Positions 5,994-23,503 of a stretch of 64,000 nt of DNA are shown one piece after another. The notes beneath the pieces were generated by a model. The model searched no databases and had not been told where the DNA came from. It worked only from the letters and a program-made list of their open reading frames with translations. The position numbers and the translations under genes were made by a program. The stretch's first letter is position 1, and each line of letters opens with the position of its first letter. The DNA is from Candidatus Hydrogenedens sp. (GTDB taxonomy: Bacteria > Hydrogenedentota > Hydrogenedentia > Hydrogenedentales > Hydrogenedentaceae), in contig JBMFRC010000012.1 of assembly GCA_049968235.1 (NCBI GenBank), positions 32,001 to 96,000 of the forward strand, given 5' to 3'.

Positions 5994-6022
5994 TTGACAA
6001 GGAGTAAACAGTGTGCTATAAT
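5994..6022 (+). promoter_or_regulatory. sigma70-type promoter of the rex/hnd operon
   Basis: TTGACA (5994-5999), 17-bp spacer, extended -10 TGcTATAAT (6014-6022). This sits in an AT-rich divergent intergenic region about 80 bp upstream of the rex start. Confidence 0.5.
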
Positions 6023-6040: not shown

Positions 6041-6066
6041 TTATACTTACAGGTAAGTATATAAAT

Positions 6067-6084: not shown

Positions 6085-6101
6085 TTAAAAGTATAAAGTA
6101 T

Positions 6102-6797
6102 ATGGTATCTGAGAAAACAGTAGAAAGATTAAGTTTATACCGCCGAATACTTCAACAATTGAGGGTCGAGAGTAAAGAAACTATAATGTCCCATGAACTT
6201 GCGAATATGTTACACATAAAGCCAGCACAGGTACGCAGGGATATTATGCAATTAGGTTATTCAGGAATACCTAATAGTGGTTATAGAATTCGACCTCTTT
6301 TAGAGAGTATTGCAAATTTTTTAGATTCCCCGTTGCCTCAGAGTGCTGTTTTAGTAGGTGTTGGACATTTAGGACTTGCGTTATTGGCTAACTTTGCAGG
6401 ACGATGGAGGCAATTAGCTATTCGTGCCTCTTTTGATAAAGACCCTGCAAAAGTAGGACAGACTTTTCATGGTTGTCGTTGTTATGCTATGTGTGATTTG
6501 CAAAAAGTAATTGCGGAGACAAAAAGTGTAGTAGGCATCCTGGCAATACCGGGTGAAAGTGCCCAATCTGTTTGTGACCTTCTTGTTCAGTCAGGTATTA
6601 GTGGCGTATTAAATTTTTCCCCATTGCGAATTAAAGTGCCTGATAATGTCTTTATAGAACATGTTGACCTTTCCGCTACGTTTGAAAAAGTTTCGTTCTT
6701 TGCAAGAAGAATGAAACATTATGCAGAAGAAGAAAAACGGAAAGTAGAAAATGAAATTACTGAGGGTGAATACGAAACATTAACAACCAATCAATAA
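6102..6797 (+). CDS. rex: redox-sensing transcriptional repressor Rex
   Basis: N-terminal wHTH (KTVERLSLYRRIL) and Rossmann GxGxxG (LVGVGHLGLAL), typical Rex architecture, with an acidic C-terminal tail. It sits at the head of an NADH-linked hydrogenase operon. Confidence 0.85.
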   Translation: MVSEKTVERLSLYRRILQQLRVESKETIMSHELANMLHIKPAQVRRDIMQLGYSGIPNSGYRIRPLLESIANFLDSPLPQSAVLVGVGHLGLALLANFAGRWRQLAIRASFDKDPAKVGQTFHGCRCYAMCDLQKVIAETKSVVGILAIPGESAQSVCDLLVQSGISGVLNFSPLRIKVPDNVFIEHVDLSATFEKVSFFARRMKHYAEEEKRKVENEITEGEYETLTTNQ

Positions 6798-6823
6798 ATA
6801 AAAAATTTTGTAGGAGATAGAAT

Positions 6824-7348
6824 ATGAATGAAGAATCAAAGCATGCGTGTATGGAAGAAGCAAGTGAAGAAGAACTGCTTGCTCGGCTTGATGAAGTAAT
6901 TGCAGAATATAAGGACAAGCCCGGTGCTCTTATTCCTGTTCTGCAGATTGCTCAGGCTATGTTTGGTTATCTACCCGAAAGTGCATTAAAAAAGATTAGT
7001 TTGGGACTGAACAAACCGTATAGTGAAGTTGCAGGTGTGGTAACATTTTACTCATTCTTTTCAACCCAGCCTCGTGGAAAACATATGATTCGTGTCTGTT
7101 TAGGAACTGCTTGTTATGTCCGTGGTGGCAAACAGGTTCTTTCTGCAATTAAGGATAAACTCCATATTGATGTTGGAGAGACCACGAAAGACCGTATGTT
7201 CTCTTTAGAGGTGGCTCGTTGTTTTGGTGCTTGTGGGCTTGCTCCTGCCATTATGGTGGATAACGATGTGCATCAACGGGTAAAACCTGCCCGAATTCAG
7301 GCTATTTTAGACCAGTATTTAGACAAAAACACAGAAAAAAATAAATAA
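6824..7348 (+). CDS. hndA: NuoE-like [2Fe-2S] thioredoxin-fold subunit of bifurcating hydrogenase (HndA)
   Basis: CLGTAC...CFGAC Cys pattern of NuoE/HoxE/HndA; AGGAGA RBS 8 nt upstream; order hndA-hndB-hndC-hydA. Confidence 0.85.
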   Translation: MNEESKHACMEEASEEELLARLDEVIAEYKDKPGALIPVLQIAQAMFGYLPESALKKISLGLNKPYSEVAGVVTFYSFFSTQPRGKHMIRVCLGTACYVRGGKQVLSAIKDKLHIDVGETTKDRMFSLEVARCFGACGLAPAIMVDNDVHQRVKPARIQAILDQYLDKNTEKNK

Positions 7349-7370
7349 GAAATAAATAAGGAGAAAAGCC

Positions 7371-7742
7371 ATGTCAAATATTATTCATTCTCCAGAAGAC
7401 CTTAATGCTTTACGAGAAAAGGCAATTAAGGACATTGAGATTCGTAATTCACATAAAGATTTGGTGATTACTGTTCACATGGGAACATGTGGTATTGCTG
7501 CGGGTGCCAGAGAAGTATTAAAAAATATCATCTCTGAAATTTCTGCTATAGGTATAACCAATGTTACAGTCCGTCAATCTGGATGTGCAGGTCTCTGCGA
7601 CCGTGAACCCATGATTACGGTTACTCATAAATCCTCCGGTTCTGAATATCGTTATGGAAAATTAAACACGGAAAAGATACGAGAAATTGTGAAACAGCAT
7701 ATTGCAGAAGGTAAACCTGTGATGGAATATTTAATTTCCTGA
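7371..7742 (+). CDS. hndB: small [2Fe-2S] ferredoxin-like subunit (HndB-like)
   Basis: 123 aa; HMGTCGIAAGA...CAGLCDREP thioredoxin-like [2Fe-2S] fold; size and position match HndB of tetrameric Hnd hydrogenases. Confidence 0.7.
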   Translation: MSNIIHSPEDLNALREKAIKDIEIRNSHKDLVITVHMGTCGIAAGAREVLKNIISEISAIGITNVTVRQSGCAGLCDREPMITVTHKSSGSEYRYGKLNTEKIREIVKQHIAEGKPVMEYLIS

Positions 7743-7825
7743 TGAAGAAATACAGGGTAAATTCGGATTCCCATAAAGTGGTTGAGATGAACATGTATAG
7801 CAAAATAAGAAAGAATGATATAGAA

Positions 7826-9271: not shown

Positions 9272-9342
9272 AAAAAAATATAAAGATATAAATAAAAACT
9301 TCAGAAATGAAGCATACACAAGTTATGGAAAGGAGAAAAAAA

Positions 9343-12300
9343 ATGAGTCCATTTCGAAGTCATGTATTAATCTGTGCAGGTGCAGGATGCGTGGCATCAG
9401 GTTCGATGGAAGTAAGTTCCGCCTTTTCGGAGGCACTTGCCAAACATGGGCTAAATGAAGAAATTCAAGTAGTCCATACAGGATGTTTAGGACCCTGTGC
9501 TATTGGTCCCGTGGTCGTGATTTATCCAGATGCTATTTTTTATCAAGGTGTTAAAACAACAGATGTTGAAGATATTGTTGTTGAGCATCTGTTAAAAGGT
9601 CGGCCTGTTAGTCGCTTGAATTTCAAATCTACTACCACATCACAAATTATTCCTGCACTGCAGGAGATTGGTTTTTTCAAGCAACAGACAAAGATAGTTT
9701 TAAGGAACTGTGGTATTATAGACCCTACAAAAATTGAGGAGTATATTGCGAGAGATGGGTATCAGGCTTTAGCAAAAGTACTGACAAAAATGACTCCACA
9801 GCAGGTAGTAGAAGAAGTGAAAAAATCTGGACTTCGGGGAAGAGGTGGTGCAGGATTCCCAACAGGTATAAAGTGGGAGTTAACTCAAAAAGCCCACGGA
9901 GATAAGAAATATGTTCTTTGTAATGCTGATGAAGGTGACCCGGGCGCATTTATGGACAGAAGTGTTTTGGAAGGTGACCCCCATAGTGTTATTGAAGCTA
10001 TGATTATAGCAGGATATGCCATTGGTTCTGACCAGGGATATATTTATGTTCGAGCAGAATATCCTTTAGCGGTAGAGAGATTAAATATAGCGATAAAGCA
10101 AGCCAGAGAATATGGTTTGTTAGGTAAGAATATTATGGGAACGAATTTTAATTTCGACCTTGAAATACGAATGGGTTCAGGTGCTTTTGTGTGTGGAGAA
10201 GAAACCGCATTGATGCGTTCTATCGAAGGGAAACGCGGAGAACCCAGACCCCGTCCACCGTTCCCTGCATATAAAGGTTTATGGGAAAAACCCAGTTTAT
10301 TAAATAATGTAGAAACCTATGCAAACATCCCTGTAATTATATTAAAAGGTGCTGATTGGTTTGCTTCCATAGGAACAGGTAAAAGTAAAGGAACAAAAGT
10401 GTTTGCCTTAGCAGGTGCTGTAAACAACACAGGATTGGTCGAAATTCCGATTGGTACACCATTAGGTGAAATTATTTATGATATTGGCGGTGGAATTCCG
10501 CGAGGCAAACAATTTAAGGCAGCGCAAATTGGAGGTCCTTCCGGCGGTTGTATTCCAAAACAACATCTGAATGTGCCGGTAGATTACGAGTCATTACAGG
10601 AATTAGGAGCGATTATGGGTTCCGGTGGATTAATTGTTATGGATGAAGACACATGTATGGTCGATATGGCTCGTTTCTTCCTTGACTTTGTTCAGGATGA
10701 GTCATGTGGAAAATGTGTCCCATGCCGGGTCGGAACGAAAAGAATGTTGGAAATTGTGACAAGGATTTGTGAGGGTCGGGGAGAAGAAGGCGATATTGAA
10801 AAACTTATTGAATTAGGACAACAGATTAAAGATGCATCGTTATGTGGATTAGGGCAGACAGCTCCAAACCCTGTTCTTTCTGCAATACGGCACTTCCGTG
10901 ATGAATTTGAAATTCATATTCGTGAACATAAATGTCCGGCGGGTGTCTGTCCATCTCTTGTTCGTGCTCCTTGTATGAGTGCTTGCCCGGCAAATGTTTA
11001 CATTCCGGGTTTTGTCTCATTAATATCTGAAAAACGATATGCGGAAGCACTTCGTGTGCATCGTGACCAGAACCCCTTTGCATCTGTATGTGCCCGTGTG
11101 TGTTTCCATACTTGTGAGGACAAATGTAGAAGAGCTACTCTGGATGAAGCGGTATCCATACGCGGATTGAAGCGATTTATGGTAGAGCAAGAAGTTACAA
11201 TACAACTACCTGAAATTCGTGAAAATGAACAAAATCTTCGCAAAAAGGTGGCTATTATAGGAGCAGGTCCTGCAGGTCTAACCTGTGCTTATTTCCTTGC
11301 ACGATTAGGCTATCAACCCCGTGTTTTTGAATCTGCACCCAGGCCCGGCGGTATGTTAGTTCAAACAATTCCCGCTTATCGGTTACCCCGAGAAGAATTG
11401 GCTCGAGAAATTCGTATGATAGAAAGAATGGGCGTTGTCATAGAAACTGAAAAAGCCTTAGGTCGTGATTTTACATTACAAAGCCTTCGTGATGATGGAT
11501 ATGAGGCTATTTTTCTCGGAATAGGTGCTCCATCAGGTCAAAAATTGAGAATTCCAGGCGAAGATGCGGATGGCGTTGTCGAAGCCATAGACTTCCTTCG
11601 TGAATACAATCTCCGTGGTTCTGTTCCTGTAGGGAAAAATGTTGTTATTATAGGAGGTGGTAATGCAGCTATTGATGCGGCAAGAACTGCCATTCGTTTA
11701 GGAGCAAAAAAAGCAACGATTCTTTACCGCAGAACAAGAGAAGAGATGCCTGCGTATAAAGAAGAGATCGAAGAAGCAGTTAATGAAGGTGTTATTTTAA
11801 AAATGTTAGTAACTCCACTGGAGATTTTGACAGAAAACGGAAAAGTTGTTGGTGTAAAATGTCAACACATGTGGTTAGGAGAATATGACCGTTCCGGTAG
11901 AAGAAGACCTGAAGCCAAAAAGGGTGAAGAACCCTTTGTTGAAGAAGCAGACCAGGTTATTGCAGCAATAGGGCAAACTGTTGATTTAAAACGTTACCTG
12001 GATGGATTAAATGTTAAGTTAACACCTTCTGGTTTCTTGTGGGTAGACCAATTATATGGTCAGACCTCTATTGAATGGTTATTTGCAGGTGGTGATATTA
12101 GTTCAGGTCCTTCTTCCGTAGCAGAAGCAATCGGTGCTGGTGAAAGAGCTGCAGTTGGAATTGATAAGTATCTTACTGGAGAAGAACATGCTTTCTGGCG
12201 CGAACCCTATATGGTAGATACAGAATTTGACCCAGATTCCGACCCGGTAGATTTCCCAAGAGCAAAAATGAAACTTTTACCTGTTGAAAAGAGGGTACAC

Positions 12301-12414
12301 AACTTTAATGAAGTTGAAATCCCGTTTACGGAAACATTAGCGGTAAGAGAGGCACGCCGTTGCTTACGTTGTGATTATCGTGAAACAAAAATAAGTTTAA
12401 ATACACAACAATAA
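9343..12414 (+). CDS. hndC: NuoF-like flavoprotein subunit (HndC) fused to a GltD/NfnB-like NAD(P)H:FAD oxidoreductase domain
   Basis: N-terminal Trx-like [2Fe-2S] (CAGAGC...CLGPC). NuoF core GRGGAGFPTGIKW (FMN) and ESCGKCVPCRVG ([4Fe-4S]). From about 10930: GltD-type Cys clusters (CPAGVCP...CMSACP, CARVCFHTCEDKC) and FAD/NAD(P) fingerprints VAIIGAGPAGL, VVIIGGGNAAID. The track ORF starts at 9307, but AGGAGA sits 8 nt before the ATG at 9343. Confidence 0.8.
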   Translation: MSPFRSHVLICAGAGCVASGSMEVSSAFSEALAKHGLNEEIQVVHTGCLGPCAIGPVVVIYPDAIFYQGVKTTDVEDIVVEHLLKGRPVSRLNFKSTTTSQIIPALQEIGFFKQQTKIVLRNCGIIDPTKIEEYIARDGYQALAKVLTKMTPQQVVEEVKKSGLRGRGGAGFPTGIKWELTQKAHGDKKYVLCNADEGDPGAFMDRSVLEGDPHSVIEAMIIAGYAIGSDQGYIYVRAEYPLAVERLNIAIKQAREYGLLGKNIMGTNFNFDLEIRMGSGAFVCGEETALMRSIEGKRGEPRPRPPFPAYKGLWEKPSLLNNVETYANIPVIILKGADWFASIGTGKSKGTKVFALAGAVNNTGLVEIPIGTPLGEIIYDIGGGIPRGKQFKAAQIGGPSGGCIPKQHLNVPVDYESLQELGAIMGSGGLIVMDEDTCMVDMARFFLDFVQDESCGKCVPCRVGTKRMLEIVTRICEGRGEEGDIEKLIELGQQIKDASLCGLGQTAPNPVLSAIRHFRDEFEIHIREHKCPAGVCPSLVRAPCMSACPANVYIPGFVSLISEKRYAEALRVHRDQNPFASVCARVCFHTCEDKCRRATLDEAVSIRGLKRFMVEQEVTIQLPEIRENEQNLRKKVAIIGAGPAGLTCAYFLARLGYQPRVFESAPRPGGMLVQTIPAYRLPREELAREIRMIERMGVVIETEKALGRDFTLQSLRDDGYEAIFLGIGAPSGQKLRIPGEDADGVVEAIDFLREYNLRGSVPVGKNVVIIGGGNAAIDAARTAIRLGAKKATILYRRTREEMPAYKEEIEEAVNEGVILKMLVTPLEILTENGKVVGVKCQHMWLGEYDRSGRRRPEAKKGEEPFVEEADQVIAAIGQTVDLKRYLDGLNVKLTPSGFLWVDQLYGQTSIEWLFAGGDISSGPSSVAEAIGAGERAAVGIDKYLTGEEHAFWREPYMVDTEFDPDSDPVDFPRAKMKLLPVEKRVHNFNEVEIPFTETLAVREARRCLRCDYRETKISLNTQQ

Positions 12415-12431
12415 TAAAAGGAGAATAAGCC

Positions 12432-14204
12432 ATGCCAAAATTAACTATAGATGGAATTCCCGTAGAAGTTCCGGAAGGAACAACAATACTTCAAGCGGCA
12501 AAGCAAATAGGATTAAAAATACCGACACTTTGTTATCTTGAAGAAGTTCAAGCCATCGGTGCCTGTCGTGTTTGCGTTGTTGAAGTTGAAGGAGCACGAA
12601 CTTTGGTCGCTTCTTGTGTTGCTCCTGTTGCGGAAGGAATGAAAGTCCATACAAATTCAAAAAGAGCCCGTGAGGCACGAAAAACAGTTGTAGAATTGTT
12701 ACTATCCGACCATGATGGCGATTGCCAGATTTGTGTTCGAAATGAAGATTGTGAACTTCAGGAATTGGCACGAACACTTGGGATAAAGGAAATTCGCTAT
12801 CAAGGTGAGAAGAGAAAACGGATTGTGGATGAAAGCACTCCCGCTGTTGTTCGTGATACATCGAAATGTGTCTTATGTAGAAGATGTATAACGGTTTGCA
12901 ATGAGGTTCAGGGTGTTGGCGGACTGTTCCCACAAAATCGTGGCTTTGAAACGGTAATAGGTCCCGCATTTTGTAGTGATTTGGATGATGTCGTATGTGT
13001 TCAGTGTGGTCAATGTAGTGCGGTTTGTCCTGTGGGTGCTATTGTAGAAAGAGACCAGATTGCGGATGTCTTTTCTGCATTAGATGACCCGACAAAAACA
13101 GTCGTTGTCCAGACAGCCCCTGCAATTCGTGCCGCATTGGGAGAATGTTTTGGTTTACCACCCGGAACTTTAGTAACAGGGAAGATGGTTACCGCACTTC
13201 GTAGACTGGGTTTCCATGCCGTTTTTGATACTAACTTTGCCGCTGACCTTTGTATTATGGAAGAAGGTACAGAACTGCTAACTCGATTGAAGAAAAAACT
13301 GGTAGATGGGGAGAATATTGCTCTTCCTATGTTTACCAGTTGTTCTCCGGGGTGGATTAAGTTTTTAGAACATTTCTACCCGGATATGATTCCAAATGTA
13401 TCTACATGCAAATCCCCACAGCAAATGTTTGGTGCTATAGCAAAGACCTATTATTCCAAGAAAATTGGTAAGAAACCCGAAGATATTGTTGTTGTTTCTA
13501 TTATGCCCTGTACAGCGAAGAAATATGAACATCAGCGTCCCGAGATGAACAGTTCCGGTGTTCGTGATGTGGACTATGTGCTTACAACGCGTGAATTGGG
13601 TCGGATGATAAAACAGGCAGGCATTGATTTTGTAAATCTACCCGATGACAAGCAAGACTCACCATTAGGACTATCCTCTGGTGCTGCGGATATTTTTGCG
13701 AATACCGGGGGTGTTATGGAAGCGGCAATTCGAACTGTTTATGAAATAGTAACAGGACGCGAATTACCATTCGATGGACTTCATGTTGCTCCTATCGAAG
13801 GATTAGAAGGAATCAAGGAAGCCTCCTTGAAGATAGAAAAATGTGTGCCTGAATGGTCTTTCTTAGAAGGGGCTACCGTAAATGTTGCTGTGGCTCATGG
13901 ATTGGGTAATGCCAGAGCATTAATAGAGCGAGTTCGCTCAGGTGAAAAGGCGTATCACTTTATAGAAATTATGACCTGTCCCGGTGGATGTATTGGTGGA
14001 GGAGGACAACCTCGCTTTACAGATAATTCAGTTCGTCTTGCTCGTATTCAGGCCATATACAAAGAGGATGAAGGGAAACAACTTCGTAAGTCCCATGTAA
14101 ATCCTGACATACAAAAATTGTATAAGGAATTTTTAGGACATCCGAATAGTGAAGTTTCACATCATCTATTACATACGCATTACAATCCGAGAACAAAAGT
14201 ATAA
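12432..14204 (+). CDS. hydA: [FeFe]-hydrogenase catalytic subunit, M3-type (HndD/HydA)
   Basis: N-terminal plant-type [2Fe-2S]; His-ligated [4Fe-4S] (HDGDCQICVRNEDC); two ferredoxin-like CxxCxxCxxxCP motifs; H-cluster motifs L2 MPCTAKKYE and L3 EIMTCPGGCIGGGGQP; L1 is present as FTSCSPGW, which is non-canonical. Confidence 0.9.
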   Translation: MPKLTIDGIPVEVPEGTTILQAAKQIGLKIPTLCYLEEVQAIGACRVCVVEVEGARTLVASCVAPVAEGMKVHTNSKRAREARKTVVELLLSDHDGDCQICVRNEDCELQELARTLGIKEIRYQGEKRKRIVDESTPAVVRDTSKCVLCRRCITVCNEVQGVGGLFPQNRGFETVIGPAFCSDLDDVVCVQCGQCSAVCPVGAIVERDQIADVFSALDDPTKTVVVQTAPAIRAALGECFGLPPGTLVTGKMVTALRRLGFHAVFDTNFAADLCIMEEGTELLTRLKKKLVDGENIALPMFTSCSPGWIKFLEHFYPDMIPNVSTCKSPQQMFGAIAKTYYSKKIGKKPEDIVVVSIMPCTAKKYEHQRPEMNSSGVRDVDYVLTTRELGRMIKQAGIDFVNLPDDKQDSPLGLSSGAADIFANTGGVMEAAIRTVYEIVTGRELPFDGLHVAPIEGLEGIKEASLKIEKCVPEWSFLEGATVNVAVAHGLGNARALIERVRSGEKAYHFIEIMTCPGGCIGGGGQPRFTDNSVRLARIQAIYKEDEGKQLRKSHVNPDIQKLYKEFLGHPNSEVSHHLLHTHYNPRTKV

Positions 14205-14223
14205 GATAAGATTTAATAATAAA

Positions 14224-14247
14224 GGGGAGTGTGAGTGAGCACTCCCC
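14224..14247 (+). terminator. weak hairpin after hydA (possible attenuating terminator)
   Basis: GGGGAGTG/CACTCCCC 8-bp stem with an 8-nt loop, but no downstream U-tract. Confidence 0.3.
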
Positions 14248-14329
14248 ATACAATCCTATGAAGTTGTATAATAGGAATATAGGTAGGAGTAAGTAGGTTT
14301 ATGAGTGTCTAATATTTAGGAAAGAAAAA

Positions 14330-14725
14330 ATGGAAAATAAAATTATAATGGTCGTTGATGATGATATTGATGTTCAGGATTTCTGTAAAATTGTATTAGG
14401 AAGAGAGGATTATCAGGTTATAACATTTTCCAACTCAGAGAGTGCACTCGAATATTTATCGTCGAACACTCCCTCTGTAATTATTACCGATTTAATGATG
14501 GGTGGAATTGATGAGGGTGTCCAATTTGTTAATAAGATTAGAGGATTCGATAATGAGAAGGCAAAAATTCCAATTATAATGATTACAGGCATAAATTCAA
14601 AATTAGGATATGACATCACTCCCCGTTCCGATGAAGAAAAAAAACAAATGAAAATCGATGAATTTATATCAAAACCTTTAAATCCAAAACAGTTAATAAC
14701 AGCACTAAAAAAAGTAATCAAATAG
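14330..14725 (+). CDS. single-domain response regulator (CheY-like receiver)
   Basis: VVDDD acidic pocket, phospho-acceptor Asp in ITDLMMGG, conserved Lys in ISKPL; 131 aa, no output domain. Confidence 0.75.
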   Translation: MENKIIMVVDDDIDVQDFCKIVLGREDYQVITFSNSESALEYLSSNTPSVIITDLMMGGIDEGVQFVNKIRGFDNEKAKIPIIMITGINSKLGYDITPRSDEEKKQMKIDEFISKPLNPKQLITALKKVIK

Positions 14726-14777
14726 AAATTTGTTTCGTATAGATACTGTTTAATTTATAAATATAAGGAAATGAGTT

Positions 14778-16175
14778 ATGAGTTCAAATGTAGAAACTGT
14801 TCCTATTAATGAGGAATTTATTTTTGATACTTTAAAAAATAGTGTCAAGAAAGATGCGGTTTACATCAAAGAAATTCTTGCAAAAGCCCTTGAATTAAAG
14901 GGATTAGATGCGACAGAAGTAGCCACGCTTGCAACAATAAGTGACCCTGACCTGTTAAAAGAACTTTTCGATACAGCCCGAAAAGTCAAAGAGGAGATTT
15001 ACGGTAAACGATTAGTTCTTTTTGCCCCACTTTATGTATCAAATCTTTGCAAGAATGAATGCTTATATTGTGCTTTCCGTAAAAGTAACAAGATGGTTCG
15101 TAGAAAAGCATTGACACAAGAAGAAGTCCGTAGAGAGGTTGAAACATTGGTTGACCAGGGGCATAAACGCATTCTATTAGTGGCAGGCGAGTCCTATCCT
15201 TCCGAAGGATTTGATTATGTTATTCATTGTATCGAAACAATATATAGTGTAAAGCGGGATAGGGGAGAGATACGACGCGTAAATGTGAATATAGCACCCT
15301 TATCGTTAGAGGAATTTAAAAGGCTGAAATCAGCAAAAATTGGGACATATCAGTTATTTCAAGAAACATACCACAGAGAAACATACCAAAAAGTCCATGT
15401 AGGTGGACTTAAAAAGGATTTTGACTGGAGAATTACCGCTATGGACCGTGCTATGAAAGCTGGCATTGATGATGTGGGTGTTGGCGTTCTTTTTGGCTTA
15501 TTTGATTGGAGATTTGAAATACTTGCTTTAATGCAACATATTAAACATTTAGAAGATACCTTCGGTGTAGGATGTCACACGATAAGTGTACCTCGCCTTG
15601 AACCTGCTATAGGTTCAGACCTGGCTTCACATCCCCCTTATCCGGTATCAGACCTTGATTTCAGAAAAATTGTAGCTATACTAAGACTTGCTGTGCCCTA
15701 TACAGGAATAATAATGTCCACTCGTGAAACTCCCAATATACGAAGAGAAACCTTTGCACTGGGTGTATCACAAATATCAGCAGGCAGTAGAACGAATCCA
15801 GGTGGGTATACAGGCAGTGAAGAAGAGGATATGAGCCAATTCTCATTAGGTGACCATCGCAGTCTGGATGAGGTTATTCGTGATGTTACAAAATTAGGTT
15901 ATATCCCATCCTTCTGCACGGCTTGTTATCGTTTAGGCAGAACAGGTGCTGACTTTATGGACCTTGCCAAGCCGGGTCTTATCAAGAACCATTGTGAAGT
16001 TAATGCTTTAAGCACTTTTGCTGAATATCTGGAAGATTATGCATCCTCCGAAACAAAACAAATAGGTTGGGCAAAGATTGAGGAAATTTTAAATACAATG
16101 CCTGAAGTTCGGAAAAAACGTACCGAAGGGATGTTGGCTCGTGTAAAAGCCGGTGAACGGGATGTATATGTGTAA
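14778..16175 (+). CDS. hydG: [FeFe]-hydrogenase H-cluster radical SAM maturase HydG
   Basis: CKNECLYCAF radical-SAM motif (ThiH-like) plus C-terminal CTACYR...NHC (Cx2Cx22C) auxiliary cluster motif; 465 aa. Confidence 0.9.
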   Translation: MSSNVETVPINEEFIFDTLKNSVKKDAVYIKEILAKALELKGLDATEVATLATISDPDLLKELFDTARKVKEEIYGKRLVLFAPLYVSNLCKNECLYCAFRKSNKMVRRKALTQEEVRREVETLVDQGHKRILLVAGESYPSEGFDYVIHCIETIYSVKRDRGEIRRVNVNIAPLSLEEFKRLKSAKIGTYQLFQETYHRETYQKVHVGGLKKDFDWRITAMDRAMKAGIDDVGVGVLFGLFDWRFEILALMQHIKHLEDTFGVGCHTISVPRLEPAIGSDLASHPPYPVSDLDFRKIVAILRLAVPYTGIIMSTRETPNIRRETFALGVSQISAGSRTNPGGYTGSEEEDMSQFSLGDHRSLDEVIRDVTKLGYIPSFCTACYRLGRTGADFMDLAKPGLIKNHCEVNALSTFAEYLEDYASSETKQIGWAKIEEILNTMPEVRKKRTEGMLARVKAGERDVYV

Positions 16176-16180
16176 ATCTT

Positions 16181-17602
16181 ATGTCAGACTACCGAATTGA
16201 AACCGACTTATTGGGTGAAAAAAAGATACCTGCGGATGTCTATTGGGGTATACATACTGCTCGTGCAGTAGAAAATTTTCCTGTTTCCCGACTCTCGGTT
16301 CATTCAGAATTAATCCAATCTTATGGAATTGTAAAACTTGCATGTGCAAAAATAAATTATTCGTTAGGATACTTATTACATCCTCCTGATAAATCATCTG
16401 CCATATTTAACGCTTGCGAAGAAGTAGCAATTGGTAAATGGAATGACCATATTATCGTGGATGCTCTACAGGGTGGAGCAGGAACCAGCACAAATATGAA
16501 TATTAATGAGGTTATTGCCAACCGTGCCCTAGAAATATTGGGCTTACCACGGGCAAAATATGACATTATTTCCCCATTAGATGATATAAATCTTCACCAA
16601 TCGACTAACGATACTTATCCTACCGCCCTGAAACTTGCTACGATAAGGATGTTAAGAAAATTAGAATCAGAAATTATTCTTCTTTTAGAGACATTTCAAA
16701 CACTTGAAAAACAATTTTCGGACATAGTAAAAATTGGAAGGACAGAACTTCAAGATGCAACGCCTATTACATTAGGTAGGGAGATGGGTGCTTATGCAGA
16801 TGCCCTAGTAAGAGACCGTTGGCGTATCTATAAGTGTGAAGAAAGATTGCGAGTAGTTAATTTAGGAGGCACCGCAATAGGAACAGGTTTAGGAGCACCA
16901 AGGGATTATATTTTCCGTGTTGTAGATAATCTGCGAGAGTTATCAAATATCGGTTTTTCGCGAGCAGAAAATTTAGTAGATGCAACTCAAAATCTCGATG
17001 TATTTGGGGAAGTATCAGGTATCATTCGTTCCTATGCCATAACGCTTAATAAAATAGCCAATGATTTGAGACTAATGTCATCCGGACCCGAAGCAGGTCT
17101 CCGTGAAATTCAACTTCCACAATTACAAGCGGGTTCATCTATTATGCCAGGGAAAGTGAACCCTGTTTTGCCTGAAGCGGTATGCCAGGTTGCAATGCTA
17201 ACATTTGGATTCGACCAGATTATCACATATGGCTGTTCTTCCGGAAACCTTGAACTAAATCCTTTTGTCCCTTTGATTGCTCATTGTTTGTTAAATATGA
17301 TTGAAATGTTAACAAATGTAACAAAATTATTTACGGAAAAATGTATTAAAGGAATTTCGCCGAACCGAGAGGTTTGTGTTTCCTATGTGAATAATTCTAC
17401 AGCAACTCTAACCGCACTTATACAGAAGATAGGATATGAAAAAGCATGTATGATTGCTAAAAAAACAAGTAATTTGAAAAAGAGTATTCGAGAAATTGTA
17501 TTGGAAGAAGGAGTTTTGACTCCTGAAGAATTTGATACTCTTTTAAGTCCTGAGTCCGTTTGTAAATTAGGATTTGTTGACACCAGTAATGAGATAGATT
17601 AG
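16181..17602 (+). CDS. aspartate ammonia-lyase / class-II fumarase family lyase
   Basis: Fumarate-lyase signature GSSIMPGKVNPV; N-terminus similar to AspA (DLLGEKKIPADVYWGIHTARA); 473 aa. Confidence 0.8.
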   Translation: MSDYRIETDLLGEKKIPADVYWGIHTARAVENFPVSRLSVHSELIQSYGIVKLACAKINYSLGYLLHPPDKSSAIFNACEEVAIGKWNDHIIVDALQGGAGTSTNMNINEVIANRALEILGLPRAKYDIISPLDDINLHQSTNDTYPTALKLATIRMLRKLESEIILLLETFQTLEKQFSDIVKIGRTELQDATPITLGREMGAYADALVRDRWRIYKCEERLRVVNLGGTAIGTGLGAPRDYIFRVVDNLRELSNIGFSRAENLVDATQNLDVFGEVSGIIRSYAITLNKIANDLRLMSSGPEAGLREIQLPQLQAGSSIMPGKVNPVLPEAVCQVAMLTFGFDQIITYGCSSGNLELNPFVPLIAHCLLNMIEMLTNVTKLFTEKCIKGISPNREVCVSYVNNSTATLTALIQKIGYEKACMIAKKTSNLKKSIREIVLEEGVLTPEEFDTLLSPESVCKLGFVDTSNEID

Positions 17603-17611
17603 GAAGGAAAT

Positions 17612-18865
17612 ATGCTTAGAGCATCACCAAAATCATTTCGACTGCATATTGGTTTTTTTGGTAGAAGGAATGTTGGAAAATCCAGTTTACTTAATGCAAT
17701 TACACGACAAAATGTCTCAATTGTTTCTGAATCCGCAGGAACCACAACAGACCCCGTGGAAAAACCTATGGAACTACTACCTTTAGGTCCTGTTCTATTC
17801 ATTGATACTGCGGGCATTGATGATATAGGTGCTTTAGGAGAATTACGGATACAAAAAACAAGACAAATTTTTGACCGAACCGATGTTGCGGTTGTTGTTA
17901 CAGAAGCCGGTATATGGGGAGAATTTGAGGAAGGCTTGTGTAATGAGTTTAAGTCAAGAAATGTTCCTATCGTAGTTGTGTTTAACAAAGTGGACCTGCA
18001 TGAACCTGATGAAACATTGTGTAATAGGTTGAAAAATGAGAAAATTCTATATGTAAAGACTATTGCATCAAAGCAGGATGGTATTAGTGAACTCAAAAAT
18101 GCACTTATTTCTTCAGCCCCCGATGATTTTATAAATAGTCCAACGATTTTAGGAGATTTGGTAGCTCCTGGTGAATTGGCTGTGCTTGTCGTGCCTATAG
18201 ATAAAGAAGCACCTAAAGGAAGACTTATTATGCCTCAGGTTCAATCCATCCGTGATTTGTTAGATAACGATGCTATGTGTGTTGTCGTAAAAGAAAGAGA
18301 ACTCCGGCGAATTTTAGAACAATTAAAAATTCTTCCAAAGATTGTTGTTACTGATTCCCAGGCATTCTTAAAAGTCGTCGCAGATACTCCTTCCAATGTA
18401 TGGGTTACAAGTTTTTCAATATTATTTTCAAGATTCCGCGGAGATTTAATTACACAGGTGGAAGGAACACTTGCTATCGAATCATTGAAACCCGGAGATA
18501 AAATACTTATTGCAGAATCATGCTCGCATCACCCTATTGCCGATGATATAGGAAGGGTTAAAATACCAAGATGGTTAATGCAATATATCGGTGGAAAATT
18601 AGAATTTGATACTGTTCAGGGAAATGATTTTTTTTCAGATTTAACAAAATATAAAATGGTTATACACTGTGGAGCATGCACACTCAATCGCCGTGCTATG
18701 TTAAATCGTATTATGCATTGCAAAAAACAAGGGATACCAATAAGTAATTACGGGTTAACTATAGCCTATTCTTTAGGTATCCTCGAAAGGGCATTAGAAC
18801 CATTCCCATCCGCATTGGAAATATATAAACAGAAAACAACAAAAAAGTTGCAAAACATTAAATAA
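17612..18865 (+). CDS. hydF: [FeFe]-hydrogenase maturation GTPase HydF
   Basis: G1 GRRNVGKSS; C-terminal CSHHP...HCGAC Fe-S binding motif characteristic of HydF; 417 aa. Confidence 0.85.
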   Translation: MLRASPKSFRLHIGFFGRRNVGKSSLLNAITRQNVSIVSESAGTTTDPVEKPMELLPLGPVLFIDTAGIDDIGALGELRIQKTRQIFDRTDVAVVVTEAGIWGEFEEGLCNEFKSRNVPIVVVFNKVDLHEPDETLCNRLKNEKILYVKTIASKQDGISELKNALISSAPDDFINSPTILGDLVAPGELAVLVVPIDKEAPKGRLIMPQVQSIRDLLDNDAMCVVVKERELRRILEQLKILPKIVVTDSQAFLKVVADTPSNVWVTSFSILFSRFRGDLITQVEGTLAIESLKPGDKILIAESCSHHPIADDIGRVKIPRWLMQYIGGKLEFDTVQGNDFFSDLTKYKMVIHCGACTLNRRAMLNRIMHCKKQGIPISNYGLTIAYSLGILERALEPFPSALEIYKQKTTKKLQNIK

Positions 18866-18873
18866 AATAAAAC

Positions 18874-19926
18874 ATGGATAAAAAAAATATTATTAATTGG
18901 CTTCGTGAAAAAAACGAAGATAAATTAAACGAACTATGGGAATTGGCGGATTCTATCCGCAGTAAATATGTAGGAGAAGAGGTGCATCTTCGAGGTTTGA
19001 TAGAAATATCAAACTATTGCAAAAAAAACTGTCTATACTGTGGAATACGAATTTCTAATAGAAAATTAACCCGATATAGAATGGAAGACAGCGAGATTTT
19101 GGAATGTGTGGAATTTGCCAAAAGAAATGGCTATGGAACAATAGTCCTTCAATCCGGCGAAGACCCCGATTTTACAAAAGAAAAAATCGCCGAATTAATT
19201 AGAAAAATAAAAGAAAATGCAAATGTGGCTATTACATTAAGTTTAGGAGAGCAGGAAAAACACACATTAGAATTATGGAAATCTGCCGGAGCCAATCGTT
19301 ATCTTCTTCGTTTTGAAACCTCAGATGAAATCCTATTTAAAAGAATCCATTCGTCAGAACAAGCAAAAAGTTTAGAGAATAGAATTAAACAACTAAAAAT
19401 ACTTAAACAATTAGGCTACGAAGCAGGAAGTGGGATAATGATTGGAATACCCTATCAAACTTATGAAAGCATCGCTAATGATATCCTACTTTTCAAACAA
19501 TTAGACCTTGATATGATAGGAATAGGACCATACATTCCTCATCCCGATACACCTTTAGGACAGGAATATCTTAATAAATATAAAAAAGATGATGAAAAAT
19601 TTGTCCCAAACACAGAATTAATGACATATAAAGTCCTTGCATTAACCCGAATTATATGTCCAACCGTAAACATTCCTGCCACCACTGCCCTTGCAACTGT
19701 GAATACACGAGAAGGTCGCATTTTAGCCCTGAAGAGGGGAGCCAATGTTATCATGCCGAATCTCACTCCACCAAAATATAAAAAATTGTATGAAATTTAT
19801 CCAGGTAAATCGTCTGCTGATGAACCTCCAGAAATTATTCATCAAAGTATAATGAAGATTATAGAAAAGGCAGGAAGAAAAGTAGGAACAGGGATGGGAA
19901 ATCGCAAAAAAATCATAGATATTTAA
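18874..19926 (+). CDS. hydE: [FeFe]-hydrogenase radical SAM maturase HydE
   Basis: CKKNCLYCGI CxxxCxxC; BioB-like length (350 aa); sits in the hydG-hydF-hydE cluster. Confidence 0.9.
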   Translation: MDKKNIINWLREKNEDKLNELWELADSIRSKYVGEEVHLRGLIEISNYCKKNCLYCGIRISNRKLTRYRMEDSEILECVEFAKRNGYGTIVLQSGEDPDFTKEKIAELIRKIKENANVAITLSLGEQEKHTLELWKSAGANRYLLRFETSDEILFKRIHSSEQAKSLENRIKQLKILKQLGYEAGSGIMIGIPYQTYESIANDILLFKQLDLDMIGIGPYIPHPDTPLGQEYLNKYKKDDEKFVPNTELMTYKVLALTRIICPTVNIPATTALATVNTREGRILALKRGANVIMPNLTPPKYKKLYEIYPGKSSADEPPEIIHQSIMKIIEKAGRKVGTGMGNRKKIIDI

Positions 19927-20553
19927 TATAAACATATATTGATTAATCAGCAAAAAATAATTGCTAACATTCAATAGAATATCTTTCTACGTAACACAAA
20001 CGCCCTACCTGTTTTTTTTAATGTTCAATTCTTTCCTCCATATCCTCTGTGATTCATTTATTTTCCAAATGTAAGTGTAGTGGGAGCATCCCTGCTCCCT
20101 TAAAAAAATAAACATTGATATGCAATCTATCCATTTGGTAGCAAGGATAAGTCTGTTACATACATTCACTCTTCAGGGCAGACGCATGGGTCTGCTACTA
20201 CAAATAATTCCTCACGGGCAGGAGTGCCTATGGTAATTTATAAGACATAATTTTTTTTAAGTTGTTAGGAATATCTGTGTTCTTTTTAAGATTAAATTGT
20301 CTCAAAACTTTATTCTTCATCTTTTATACATCTACATCCTCCACATAAAGAATTATGCCAAGAAATACGCAAATTGTAATATATGAATTACAGAAGAGCT
20401 TTGGACATAAAGGATAAAGAGAATTTATGGATAGATAACAAGGTAATTTATAAAAGGAAAGATATGATTAAAGTTTGTTATAATATTACCCCTTCTTGAT
20501 GAAATAAAATTGTAAAGAGTAAGATTATATTTATAAATAAGAAAGGAAATGCA

Positions 20554-21966
20554 ATGCCAAAAAACATTTATGAAAAGATATGGGATGCACATTTGGTTCA
20601 TACACCTGATGACCAGGACCCTATTATCTATATCGACAGGCACTATATCCATGAAGTAACATCACCGCAAGCATTTGAAGGACTAAGAATTACTGGTAGA
20701 AAAGTGCGTCGTCCTGATTTGACTTTTGCTACGATGGACCATAATATACCGACAACGAATCGTGATAAACCGATTGCAGACCCGATGTCTGCGTTACAGG
20801 TAGAGACATTAAAAAATAATTGCAAGGAATTTGGTATCCAGTGTTTTGATATGTATGACCCACGAAATGGGATAGTTCATGTTGTGGGTCCGGAGTTAGG
20901 ATTAACACAACCAGGGATGACGATTGTTTGTGGAGATTCTCATACTTCAACACACGGTGCTTTTGGTGCACTTGCGTTTGGTATTGGAACAAGTGAAGTG
21001 GAGCATGTCCTTGCTACGCAAACATTATTGCAAAGAAAATCTAAGACAATGGAAATTCGTATCACAGGCAAACTACCTATAGGTGTTACTGCAAAAGACC
21101 TTATTATGCATATTATCGGGAAAATAGGAACAGATGGTGGCACGGGTTATGTAATTGAATACACAGGAGAAGTTGTTAGAAACCTTTCTATGGAAGGTCG
21201 TATGACTTTGTGCAATATGACCATAGAGGCAGGTGCACGAGCAGGGCTAATTTCTCCTGATGAGACGACTGTGAAATATTTATTAGGAAGACCTTATATT
21301 CCAAAACATATCCCCGAAGAAGAACTGATAAAACTCTGGTTGTCATGGGCATCTGACTCTGGCTGTTCTTATGATAAAACAATAATTATTAATGCTAAGG
21401 ATGTAGAACCGCAAGTAACATGGGGAACATCTCCCGAAATGGTTGCTCCTATTTCAGGCAGAGTTCCTGTGTTAAATGAGATACAGGATACAAACCGCAG
21501 AAATGCGGTTAACAAAGCCCTCCAATATATGGGTCTTGAAGAAGGAACTCCTATCGAAGCCATCGAAGTCGATAAGATATTTATTGGTTCCTGTACAAAT
21601 GGAAGAATTGAAGATTTACGAGAAGTGGCAAAAGTTGTGAAGGGTTATAAAGTTAACCAAAGAATAAAGCAGGCAATAATTGTTCCAGGTTCGATGTTAG
21701 TAAAGGGACAAGCAGAACAGGAAGGATTACACAATATTTTTATAGAAGCAGGTTTTGAATGGAGAGAACCAGGTTGCTCCATGTGCCTCGCAATGAACGA
21801 TGACCGATTAAATCCGGGGGAACGTTGTGCCTCCACTTCAAATCGTAACTTTGAAGGTCGTCAAGGTAAAGGAGGACGCACACACCTTGTTAGTCCAGCC
21901 ATGGCTGGAGCCTGTGCTATTACTGGACATTTCGTTGATATTCGCAAATGGAAATTTAATGAATAA
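20554..21966 (+). CDS. leuC: 3-isopropylmalate dehydratase large subunit
   Basis: Aconitase-family motifs ([27 protein letters not shown]); followed by leuD. Confidence 0.9.
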
Positions 21967-21980
21967 AAGGAGATAGAACA

Positions 21981-22580
21981 GTGGAGAAATTTACTGTATT
22001 AAAAGGAATTGTCGCACCTTTAGATGCGAGAAATGTGGATACAGACCAGATAGTTCCGAAACAATTTTTGAAACGAATACAGAGAACAGGTTATGAAGAT
22101 GTCCTTTTTTATGATTGGCGTTATCTCAATGATGGGAAAACACTCAATCCGCAATTTGAGATGAACGCACTACGTTATAAAGGTGCTACTATTTTATTGA
22201 CACGTGACAATTTCGGTTGTGGTTCATCACGCGAGCATGCACCATGGGCATTAAAAGATTATGGTTTCCGTTGTATTCTGGCTATTTCATTTGCTGATAT
22301 TTTTTACAATAATTGTTTTAACAATGGAATTTTACCCATTACTCTTTCTCTGGAAGTTATTGAACAACTTTTTATAGAAGTTCGTTCGCAAGAAAATTAT
22401 ATGTTAGAAATAGATTTAGTAAATCAATTAATTACAAAACCGGATGGAAAACAGATTCATTTTGACATCCATTCGTTTCTTAAAGAGCGTTTATTAAATG
22501 GATGGGACCAGATAGGTCTTACATTACGATATGAACAATTAATAAGCGAATTTGAACAAAAGCATCCACTGAAATTGTGA
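21981..22580 (+). CDS. leuD: 3-isopropylmalate dehydratase small subunit
   Basis: Aconitase swivel-domain protein about 200 aa ([18 protein letters not shown]) immediately downstream of leuC. Confidence 0.9.
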
Positions 22581-22610
22581 AAAACATGATTTAAGAAAGG
22601 AGAAAGGAAC

Positions 22611-22910
22611 ATGCCTTTATACACATATCAGGTAATTCACAAAGATGGTAGCGAAGGTGAGATTATCGAGGTGTTTCAAAAGGCAGGTGAGCCTCCTTTA
22701 CAATTTCATCCACAAACAGGCGAAAAAGTAATTCGGATATTTAAGCCTGCACATATTGCAGGTTGGGCTAATGAACGGATGGCAAAACAAATGTTAAGTG
22801 ACAAAAACCTTGCTGAAAAAGGTTTTGCAAAGTATGTTCGCTCAGGTAAAGGTTATTATGAAAAGACAACAGGAAAAGAAGGACCCCCAACAATCAATAT
22901 AAATGACTGA
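22611..22910 (+). CDS. hypothetical small protein, Cys-less FmdB-like N-terminus
   Basis: Starts MPLYTYQV like FmdB-family zinc ribbons (MPxYxY) but has no Cys residues; strong RBS GGAGAAAGGAAC. Confidence 0.4.
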   Translation: MPLYTYQVIHKDGSEGEIIEVFQKAGEPPLQFHPQTGEKVIRIFKPAHIAGWANERMAKQMLSDKNLAEKGFAKYVRSGKGYYEKTTGKEGPPTININD

Positions 22911-22989
22911 TACTGAGTTTGATTATACACATATTACTTTTATATGCTTTATTAAAATCTACATGAATACCAATTTAGGAGGATAAAGA

Positions 22990-23493: not shown

Positions 23494-23503
23494 AATTACT
23501 TCG

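What the first reader, a model, noticed from the sequence alone, without database searches (positions are those of the whole stretch)
14330..17602. Receiver-only response regulator and an AspA-family ammonia-lyase interleaved with hydA and the hydG/hydF/hydE maturase genes
Gene order is hydA - CheY-like receiver - hydG - aspartase/fumarase-family lyase (GSSIMPGKVNPV) - hydF - hydE. Intergenic gaps are 6-55 nt, so the arrangement looks operonic. An ammonia-lyase sitting between two H-cluster maturases is not explained by central metabolism here. As inference only: it could supply ammonia or fumarate chemistry linked to azadithiolate-bridge biosynthesis, or it could be a hitch-hiker. The receiver domain suggests a phosphorelay input on hydrogenase maturation in addition to Rex.
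Basis: inference. Interest (0 to 1): 0.5.

Follow-up and report, generated by a model that had tools for sequence, protein, structure and literature searches.

The report
Hydrogenase operon with aspartase and receiver
A hydrogen-enzyme operon from an uncultured Hydrogenedens bacterium carries an aspartase-like gene wedged between the cofactor-assembly genes, a link already published in 2024 as a probable ammonia supply for the cofactor, plus a small signalling protein from a family that nearly always sits in hydrogenase operons.

Summary
The + strand reads rex, nuoE-like, fdx-like, GH-like, hydB/gltD fusion, hydA, receiver-only regulator, hydG, AspA-like lyase, hydF, hydE. Gaps from the receiver to hydE are 52, 5, 9 and 8 nt. 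The hydA-to-receiver gap is 125 nt and holds a GC hairpin.

The lyase is not an ordinary housekeeping AspA. Of its 80 closest relatives in species-representative genomes, 77 lie within 10 kb of hydG, hydF or hydE. They form one clade (NJ bootstrap 88/100), separate from E. coli AspA, Bacillus AspB and FumC. All aspartase substrate-binding and catalytic residues are kept. The ammonia-supply idea was published in 2024 (PMC11736057), and the hydG-aspA-hydF order was noted by 2012. That part is correct but already known. The published experiment used E. coli AspA, not a hyd-clade enzyme.

The receiver has every phosphorylation residue and no output domain. It belongs to a family of stand-alone receivers. 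All 11 sampled members sit in hydrogenase operons. In Acidobacteriota and Planctomycetota these include a hydrogenase-domain/histidine-kinase fusion and a receiver-kinase hybrid. No kinase lies in this window. I found no description of this receiver family in the literature searched.

The parts
5994..6022 (+). Consensus sigma-70-type promoter (TTGACA, 17 nt, TG-TATAAT) upstream of rex. It is the likely start of the whole operon.
   Evidence: 12 of 12 hexamer matches with an extended -10. This is a consensus match only. Transcription was not tested.
6102..6797 (+). Rex-type redox-sensing repressor
   Evidence: PF06971 Put_DNA-bind_N plus PF02629 CoA_binding.
6824..7742 (+). Two thioredoxin-like [2Fe-2S] proteins: a NuoE/HydC-like protein (6824-7348) and a small ferredoxin-like protein (7371-7742).
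   Evidence: PF01257 at 1.9e-51 and 2.8e-5.
9307..12414 (+). HydB-like NuoF flavoprotein fused to a GltD-like NAD(P)H oxidoreductase (1035 aa)
   Evidence: Complex1_51K, NADH_4Fe-4S, Fer4_20 and Pyr_redox_2.
12432..14204 (+). HydA, the catalytic [FeFe]-hydrogenase subunit
   Evidence: Fe_hyd_lg_C and Fe_hyd_SSU. NF040763 scores 907 bits, above its cutoff. The H-cluster motifs TSCSPGW, MPCTAKKYE and EIMTCPGGCIGGGGQP are present.
14224..14247 (+). GC-rich hairpin (GGGGAGTG, 8-nt loop, CACTCCCC) in the 125-nt hydA-to-receiver spacer. No T-run follows on the + strand.
   Evidence: A role as partial terminator or mRNA-stability element is inferred.
14330..14725 (+). Stand-alone response-regulator receiver (131 aa, no output domain)
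   Evidence: PF00072 only. D10-D12, D54, T86 and K115-P116 are invariant or nearly so in the family; family members are embedded in hydrogenase operons.
14778..16175 (+). HydG radical-SAM maturase
   Evidence: TIGR03955 at 540 bits, above the cutoff of 312.
16181..17602 (+). AspA-family lyase of the hyd-linked clade (473 aa)
17612..18865 (+). HydF GTPase scaffold
   Evidence: TIGR03918 at 557 bits, with HydF_dimer and HydF_tetramer domains.
18874..19926 (+). HydE radical-SAM maturase
   Evidence: TIGR03956 at 331 bits, above the cutoff of 255.

Best explanation
This is one long hydrogenase operon of a Candidatus Hydrogenedens genome: rex, hydC-like, fdx-like, GH-like, hydB/gltD, hydA, receiver, hydG, lyase, hydF, hydE.

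The lyase is a working aspartate ammonia-lyase from a subclade that is inherited together with hydG, hydF and hydE. It converts L-aspartate to fumarate plus NH4+. It is co-expressed with the maturases so that ammonium is available locally for building the dithiomethylamine (azadithiolate) bridge of the H-cluster. In the published model the route runs through the T-protein and aminomethyl-lipoyl-H-protein to HydF.

The receiver is phosphorylated on Asp54 by a hydrogen- or redox-sensing kinase encoded elsewhere in the genome. Having no DNA-binding domain, it acts as a phosphoryl shuttle or sink, or by binding a protein partner.

Shown here: gene content, order and spacing; clade membership; conservation of catalytic residues; conserved synteny.
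Shown by others: aspartate plus E. coli AspA can donate the bridgehead nitrogen in vitro.
Inferred: that this clade's enzyme does so in vivo; the identity of the receiver's kinase; the receiver's target.
For: Lyase:
- Of the 80 closest relatives (59-86% identity, many phyla), 77 have hydG, hydF or hydE within 10 kb.
- hydG is directly upstream in 58 of 68 evaluable loci. hydF is downstream in 59 of 67. hydA is in view in only 16 of 52. The gene therefore travels with the maturases, not with the structural enzyme.
- The relatives form one NJ clade, bootstrap 88/100, separate from E. coli AspA and Bacillus AspB.
- All AspB substrate and catalytic residues are invariant in the 82 clade members: T101, S140, T141, N142, T187, S318, S319, M321, K324 and N326.
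- NCBIfam places it in the aspartate ammonia-lyase subfamily above the cutoff.
- PMC11736057 reports aspA enrichment near hydF. It also shows 15N transfer from aspartate to the bridgehead when E. coli AspA is added to a defined maturation system.

Receiver:
- The acidic pocket, phospho-acceptor Asp, Thr and Lys-Pro are all conserved.
- All 11 sampled family members lie in hydrogenase operons.
- In L034, L063, L075, L090, L091, L175 and L176 the receivers flank a hydrogenase-domain/HisKA/HATPase fusion and a receiver-kinase hybrid, between hydA and the maturase genes.
Against: - No enzyme of the hyd-linked clade has been assayed. The published experiment used E. coli AspA, which is only 44% identical to this protein.
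- The lyase scores below the strict AspA equivalog cutoff: TIGR00839, 516 against 681.
- The AspB His188 position is Glu here and Gln in most of the clade.
- I could not check whether these genomes also carry a canonical AspA. The gene could therefore be the only, housekeeping, aspartase.
- No glycine-cleavage genes and no histidine kinase are present in the 64-kb window.
- In relative L003 the receiver has decayed to a pseudogene, so it is dispensable there.
- Co-transcription across the 125-nt hairpin spacer was not shown.
Confidence: 0.6

Rival explanations
1. The lyase is a metabolic passenger. It is the cell's ordinary aspartase, placed in a hydrogen-metabolism operon because aspartate or fumarate catabolism is coordinated with hydrogen production. 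Fumarate could act as an electron sink, or aspartate could be fermented to acetate plus H2. On this view it has no role in cofactor assembly.
For: - The catalytic residues are those of a standard aspartase.
- The P. carbinolicus genome paper proposed exactly this for its hydG-aspA-hydF cluster (PMC3543383).
- Pagnier et al. also mention fumarate as an anaerobic electron acceptor.
- I could not exclude that this is the only aspartase in the genome.
Against: - The gene keeps its place between or next to hydG and hydF even where hydA is not within 10 kb. hydA is in view in only 16 of 52 loci, against a maturase in 77 of 80.
- The hyd-linked genes form a clade separate from canonical AspA.
- E. 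coli aspA sits beside dcuA, not hyd genes.
Confidence: 0.2
2. The hyd-linked lyase has diverged to a different substrate or role. It might act on a maturation intermediate, channel ammonia directly to HydF or HydG by protein contact, or serve as a fumarase.
For: - It forms a distinct clade, bootstrap 88/100.
- It scores below the AspA and FumC equivalog cutoffs.
- It has clade-specific substitutions: His before QSTND, LGRE in place of LGQE, Glu176, Met202 and Asn356 in window numbering.
- Its tightest neighbour is hydG, in 58 of 68 loci.
Against: - Every residue known to bind aspartate or catalyse elimination in AspB is invariant.
- It carries Thr141, the aspartase type, not the Ser typical of fumarase C. 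It also lacks the His188 typical of fumarase C.
- No fusion of the lyase to any Hyd protein was found among 150 cluster representatives.
Confidence: 0.12
3. In this genome the receiver is a leftover of a larger sensing module that was lost. It no longer has a function tied to the hydrogenase.
For: - The window and L025 keep only one receiver. L034, L063 and L075 have a receiver, a sensor-kinase fusion, another receiver and a receiver-kinase hybrid at the same place.
- The receiver is a pseudogene in L003.
- No kinase is present in the window.
Against: - The receiver is intact, with all catalytic residues.
- It is 73-89% identical among Hydrogenedens-group relatives, which indicates purifying selection.
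- Orphan receivers commonly pair with kinases encoded elsewhere (general knowledge of two-component systems).
Confidence: 0.2

Closest known systems
aspA genes in hyd operons, as described by Pagnier et al., J Biol Chem 2024 (PMC11736057). Noted earlier in Pelobacter carbinolicus (PMC3543383) and in Sulfurospirillum cavolei and Desulfovibrio vulgaris (PMC4794192).
   Same: - An AspA-family gene lies between hydG and hydF.
- The proposed role is as an ammonium source for the dithiomethylamine bridge.
   Different: - Those papers identify the gene by annotation or Pfam domain only. The 2024 paper contains no phylogeny or clade analysis.
- Here the hyd-linked genes form their own clade, distinct from the E. 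coli AspA used in the experiment.
- In this sample the closest neighbour is hydG more often than hydF.
Bacillus sp. YM55-1 aspartase AspB (PDB 1J3U) and E. coli AspA (1JSW)
   Same: - Same fold family, with 47% and 44% identity.
- Same SS loop (GSSIMPGKVNPV).
- All substrate-binding and catalytic residues are conserved.
   Different: - Position 188 is Glu here. It is His in AspB and Gln in E. coli AspA.
- The protein has the clade-specific HQSTND and LGRE motifs.
- The genomic context is the hyd maturases, not dcuA.
Putative sensory [FeFe] hydrogenases linked to histidine kinases ('group C1' in the HydDB/Greening classification, cited from my own knowledge), and the [NiFe] regulatory hydrogenase with the HoxJ kinase.
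   Same: In related loci the receiver family flanks hydrogenase-domain/HisKA/HATPase fusion proteins. In L092 it lies next to [NiFe] small and large subunits followed by a PAS kinase.
   Different: - The window has only the receiver, with no sensor hydrogenase or kinase.
- The known [NiFe] system ends in a DNA-binding regulator (HoxA). These receivers have no output domain.
Single-domain response regulators such as CheY, Spo0F and DivK
   Same: - A receiver domain alone with a complete phosphorylation site.
- It is expected to act by protein contact or phosphorelay.
   Different: - The nearest solved structures are receiver domains of OmpR/PhoB-type regulators, at about 90 bits. Family members score 140-190 bits.
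- The family has its own D[LV]MM motif after the acceptor Asp and a longer segment between the beta4 and beta5 strands.
- No characterised orthologue was found.

Membership tests
Aspartase/fumarase superfamily (Pfam Lyase_1 plus FumaraseC_C) | Lyase_1 domain, C-terminal FumaraseC_C domain and the GSSxMPxKxNP signature loop | tested here: met
   PF00206 at 269 bits and PF10415 at 60 bits. The loop is GSSIMPGKVNPV.
Aspartate ammonia-lyase, strict equivalog (NCBIfam TIGR00839) | Whole-protein score at or above the curated cutoff of 681.2 bits | tested here: not met
   516 bits.
Aspartate ammonia-lyase subfamily (NCBIfam NF008909 / PRK12273) | Whole-protein score at or above the cutoff of 510 bits | tested here: met
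   629 bits.
Aspartase active site (AspB numbering) | T101, S140, T141, N142, T187, S318 (catalytic base), K324 and N326 present. His or Gln at position 188. | tested here: met
   all are invariant in the 82 clade members. Position 188 is Glu in the window and Gln in 65 of 82. Glu also occurs in 2 of the 46 canonical-clade sequences. The residue roles are taken from my knowledge of the AspB literature.
Aspartase enzymatic activity | Reversible deamination of L-aspartate to fumarate plus ammonium | not testable with these tools
   Needs an enzyme assay.
Class II fumarase (FumC) | TIGR00979 score at or above 664.75 bits, the QSSND motif and His188 | tested here: not met
   420 bits. The motif is QSTND and position 188 is Glu.
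hyd-linked AspA-like clade (defined here) | Falls in the clade of lyases adjacent to hydG, hydF or hydE, and is itself flanked by hydG and hydF | tested here: met
   clade of 82 tips, bootstrap 88/100. A maturase gene is within 10 kb in 77 of 80 loci.
Response-regulator receiver domain (PF00072) | Receiver fold with acidic pocket, phospho-acceptor Asp, conserved Thr/Ser and Lys | tested here: met
   68.6 bits against a cutoff of 30.2. D10-D12, D54, T86 and K115-P116.
Stand-alone (single-domain) response regulator | No output domain | tested here: met
   The protein is 131 aa and the receiver domain covers residues 6-126. There is no other Pfam hit.
Hydrogen-sensing two-component module (sensor hydrogenase-kinase plus receivers) | A hydrogenase-domain/HisKA/HATPase protein, or another histidine kinase, encoded with the receiver | tested here: not met
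   No kinase or second hydrogenase domain is present in the 64-kb window. Such proteins are present in the related loci L034, L063, L075, L090, L091, L175 and L176.
H-cluster maturase set HydE/HydF/HydG | All three equivalog models above their cutoffs | tested here: met
   TIGR03956 at 331 against 255, TIGR03918 at 557 against 326, TIGR03955 at 540 against 312.

The most novel reading that the evidence does not exclude
The receiver belongs to an undescribed family of stand-alone receivers dedicated to hydrogenases. It would be the output of hydrogen-sensing phosphorelays, which start from hydrogenase-domain kinases, GAF kinases or [NiFe] sensor-kinase pairs. It would act directly on the hydrogenase complex or on the maturases rather than on DNA. 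Together with a maturation-specific aspartase paralogue, it would form a conserved enzyme, sensor, maturase and nitrogen-donor super-operon found in several phyla.
Probability: 0.3. Interest if true: 0.6.

Novelty: new member of a known kind. Interest (0 to 1): 0.38.

Why it matters
The origin of the bridgehead nitrogen of the [FeFe]-hydrogenase cofactor is a live question. The published evidence for an aspartase route rests on E. coli AspA. This work shows that the aspartase genes actually found in hyd clusters form their own lineage, inherited with hydG and hydF across many phyla. That lineage is the right protein to test in defined maturation assays and in knockouts.

The receiver result points to a little-studied signalling layer. 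A family of output-less receivers is nearly always embedded in hydrogenase operons, often beside hydrogenase-domain kinases. Studying it could show how bacteria sense hydrogen and tune hydrogenase synthesis or activity.

Tried and rejected
- Gene fusions between the lyase and Hyd proteins: I looked among 150 cluster representatives. The long proteins turned out to be fusions with cNMP-binding, peptidase S51, malic enzyme, CoaE or eukaryotic zinc-finger domains, not Hyd proteins.
- Glu at the AspB His188 position as a clade marker: rejected. It is limited to the Hydrogenedens group and some outliers, and most of the clade has Gln like E. coli AspA.
- Histidine kinases or a second hydrogenase domain in the window: none found by Pfam on all large ORFs or by tblastn with five kinase queries.
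- Receiver-centred scan of metagenome contigs with degenerate patterns: it mostly returned generic receivers on short contigs, with about 15 of 80 next to [FeFe] hydrogenase genes. It is therefore not a clean enrichment statistic. Some of the remainder lie next to [NiFe] hydrogenase or HypD/HypE genes.
- Single-sequence search with the receiver: it found only 10 close relatives. A profile search was needed.
- Generic Rex-operator pattern search: no better than chance.
- Rfam scan of 5000-24000: no hits.
- First bootstrap attempt: timed out. It was redone with a faster NJ.
- Literature searches for hydrogenase-operon receivers: nothing specific found.
Full report
**Observation**

The region is as described. 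On the + strand lie the following genes:
- HydA, 12432-14204: NCBIfam 'NADH-dependent [FeFe] hydrogenase, group A6', 907 bits.
- A 131-aa protein that is only a response-regulator receiver domain, 14330-14725.
- HydG, 14778-16175.
- A 473-aa Lyase_1/FumaraseC_C protein with the loop GSSIMPGKVNPV, 16181-17602.
- HydF, 17612-18865.
- HydE, 18874-19926.

Gaps from the receiver onwards are 52, 5, 9 and 8 nt. The gap between hydA and the receiver is 125 nt and holds a perfect 8-bp GC hairpin without a downstream T-run.

Upstream, the same strand carries a Rex repressor, two thioredoxin-like [2Fe-2S] proteins, a glycoside-hydrolase-like ORF and a NuoF/GltD fusion. All follow a perfect sigma-70-type promoter at 5994-6022. 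The lyase is 100% identical to a GenBank protein of a Candidatus Hydrogenedens MAG.

**Is the lyase an ordinary AspA?**

No.

*Synteny.* A scan of one genome per species returned the 80 closest relatives, at 59-86% identity. They come from Hydrogenedentota, Prolixibacteraceae (Bacteroidota), Planctomycetota, Acidobacteriota, Chlorobiota, Bacillota, Verrucomicrobiota and others. I mapped the window's proteins onto these loci with tblastn:
- A maturase gene lies within 10 kb in 77 of 80 loci. Two of the three exceptions are short or truncated contigs.
- hydG is directly upstream in 58 of 68 evaluable loci.
- hydF is downstream in 59 of 67 loci, and immediately downstream in 23.
- hydA is in view in only 16 of 52 loci.

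The gene therefore travels with the maturases rather than with the structural hydrogenase.

*Phylogeny.* I built a neighbour-joining tree from these sequences, 150 representatives of 50%-identity clusters from a 1.8-billion-protein library, E. coli AspA and FumC and Bacillus AspB. The hyd-linked sequences form one clade of 82 tips, with bootstrap 88/100 on a 162-taxon subset. Canonical AspA (E. coli, AspB) forms a neighbouring group, and fumarase-C-type sequences lie further out.

*Family scores.* The window protein is 47% identical to AspB, 44% to E. coli AspA and 40% to E. coli FumC. It passes the NCBIfam aspartate ammonia-lyase subfamily model but not the strict AspA or FumC equivalogs.

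**Is it still an aspartase?**

Very probably.
- Every residue that binds substrate or catalyses elimination in AspB is invariant across the clade: T101, S140, T141, N142, T187, S318, S319, M321, K324 and N326. It has the aspartase-type Thr141 rather than the fumarase-type Ser.
- Position 188 is His in AspB and Gln in E. coli AspA. It is Gln in most of the clade and Glu in the Hydrogenedens group.
- Clade-specific changes are His before QSTND, LGRE for LGQE, Glu176, Met202 and Asn356. None of them is one of the substrate-binding or catalytic residues listed above. I did not map them onto a structure.

**What is known**

- The hydG-aspA-hydF order was noted in Pelobacter carbinolicus in 2012, with a catabolic explanation.
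- It was noted in Sulfurospirillum cavolei and Desulfovibrio vulgaris in 2016, as unexplained.
- In 2024 Pagnier et al. reported that 79% of authentic hydF genes have aspA, ilvA or sdaA within 20 ORFs, with aspA the closest. They also showed that E. coli AspA plus 15N-aspartate labels the dithiomethylamine nitrogen in a defined maturation system.

That paper contains no phylogeny and did not test a hyd-linked enzyme. The finding that hyd-linked lyases form a separate lineage is a modest addition. It also names the right protein for future tests.

**The receiver**

It has the full phosphorylation site (D10-D12, D54, T86, K115-P116) and no output domain.

*Close homologues.* Homologues at 73-89% identity are confined to the Hydrogenedens group.

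*More distant homologues.* These occupy the same or nearby positions in hyd operons of Planctomycetota and Acidobacteriota. In L034, L063 and L075 the segment between hydA and the maturase genes encodes four things:
- a receiver;
- a protein fusing ferredoxin and [FeFe]-hydrogenase H-domains to HisKA and HATPase_c;
- another receiver;
- a receiver-kinase hybrid.

The fusion in L034 has TTPCP where catalytic enzymes have TSCCP. That would fit a sensor rather than a catalyst. I checked this in that one sequence only.

*Profile search.* A profile of these receivers retrieved a large family of 126-127-aa stand-alone receivers. I looked up the genomic context of 11 members chosen for long contigs, and all 11 lie in hydrogenase operons:
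- Five are the first gene of receiver-hydC-hydB-hydA operons. Three of the five have a divergent rex plus GAF-kinase pair upstream, and a fourth has a GAF kinase downstream of hydA.
- Five lie in operons ordered hydA, receiver, sensor-kinase fusion, receiver, receiver-kinase hybrid, then the maturase genes with the lyase.
- One, a tandem receiver, lies next to [NiFe] small and large subunits followed by a PAS kinase and a receiver-kinase hybrid.

*Pattern-based metagenome scan.* This looser scan gave mostly generic receivers, about 15 of 80 with [FeFe] genes. Two of the others lie beside [NiFe] hydrogenase or HypD/HypE genes.

*Limits.* The window contains no kinase. In relative L003 the receiver is a decayed pseudogene. 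The nearest solved structures are ordinary OmpR/PhoB-type receiver domains. Literature searches found no description of this family.

**Mechanism proposed**

The operon is probably transcribed from the promoter upstream of rex. The hairpin after hydA may set the ratio between structural and accessory transcripts. Both points are inferred.

The lyase makes ammonium and fumarate from aspartate at the time and place the maturases are made. This feeds the aminomethyl-H-protein route to the bridge on HydF. The steps are inferred from synteny, conserved residues and the published in vitro result.

The receiver takes a phosphoryl group from a hydrogen- or redox-sensing kinase encoded elsewhere. It then passes the phosphoryl group on or binds a protein target. 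This is inferred from the architecture of related operons.

**Rivals**

- The lyase is a metabolic passenger.
- The lyase has a diverged function.
- The receiver is a functionless remnant.

Each is weighed in the Rival explanations section.

**Verdict**

The lyase interpretation is right in direction but already published. The receiver is the fresher part. It is a member of a hydrogenase-linked family of stand-alone receivers whose kinase partner and target are unknown here.

Noticed in passing
window 7742-9271 (+): A 509-aa ORF with weak Glyco_hydro_42 and DUF4832 matches sits inside the hydrogenase operon, between the small [2Fe-2S] protein and hydB/gltD. Its start overlaps the previous stop. 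It is conserved at 71-76% identity at the same place in L001-L003. I have no explanation for a glycoside-hydrolase-like gene there.
   Followed up: partly
window 9307-12414 (+): The NuoF-type flavoprotein subunit is fused to a GltD-like NAD(P)H oxidoreductase (1035 aa). Similar fusions of about 1090 aa accompany hydA in the Acidobacteriota loci L090, L091, L175 and L176, and also in L025 and L058.
   Followed up: partly
window 12432-14204, HydA residues about 299-309: The first H-cluster motif reads TSCSPGW instead of the textbook TSCCPGW. The solved Acetobacterium woodii HydA1 (PDB 7Q4V) has the same TSCSPGW, so this is a known variant among characterised enzymes.
   Followed up: partly
window 6021-6042 and 6065-6086 (+): Two 22-nt direct repeats (ATTTGTTCATAAATTCACAATT and ATTTGTTTGTAAATTCACAATT) lie just after the consensus promoter at 5994-6022, the first one overlapping its -10 element. 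Each ends in a TTCACAA half-site like a Rex operator. A generic Rex-box pattern search was not above chance.
   Followed up: partly
window 14224-14247 (+): A perfect 8-bp GC-rich hairpin lies in the hydA-to-receiver spacer. On the + strand it is preceded, not followed, by the A/T-rich run, so it is not a canonical intrinsic terminator.
   Followed up: partly
window 19927-20553: A 627-nt non-coding stretch lies between hydE and leuC. It has a hairpin at 20082-20099 (GGGAGCA, tccc loop, TGCTCCC). There is no Rfam match.
   Followed up: partly
L034 2875-4920; L063 3678-5675; L075 4619-6616; also L090, L091, L175, L176: These proteins fuse ferredoxin and [FeFe]-hydrogenase H-domains to HisKA and HATPase_c. 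They are flanked by stand-alone receivers and a receiver-kinase hybrid, all between hydA and the maturase genes. In L034 the first H-cluster motif is TTPCP.
   Followed up: partly
L013 14031-15890; L049 14278-15996; L060 13250-15007; L061 14148-15914; L065 5202-6950: A 572-619-aa protein strongly similar (219-245 bits) to the sensor hydrogenase-kinase fusions lies directly downstream of hydE. It may be another sensory hydrogenase type. I did not annotate its domains.
   Followed up: no
L003 8137-8576: In this relative the receiver gene between hydA and hydG has decayed. Recognisable fragments (KKIVIVADD, ITDLIMGE) are split by stops and frameshifts.
   Followed up: yes
L092 1497-8783; L096 5960-9634; L100 5772-8417: Members of the same receiver family lie next to [NiFe]-hydrogenase small and large subunits with PAS or GAF kinases, or next to HypD and HypE. 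The family is therefore linked to hydrogenases in general, not only the [FeFe] type.
   Followed up: partly
L006 12142-14102 (-) and the same place in about 15 other Prolixibacteraceae loci: A conventional two-component pair lies on the opposite strand between the lyase and hydF. It consists of a kinase of about 421 aa and a regulator of about 229 aa.
   Followed up: no
P0121 (1420 aa, top hit of the representative search): This long protein has cyclic-nucleotide-binding domains and two tandem lyase domains. It is the best-scoring cluster representative for the window lyase. Its context is unknown.
   Followed up: partly
L076 10001-11452: This is the one close relative of the lyase (59% identity, Armatimonadia MAG) with 10 kb on each side and no hyd gene in view.
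   Followed up: no
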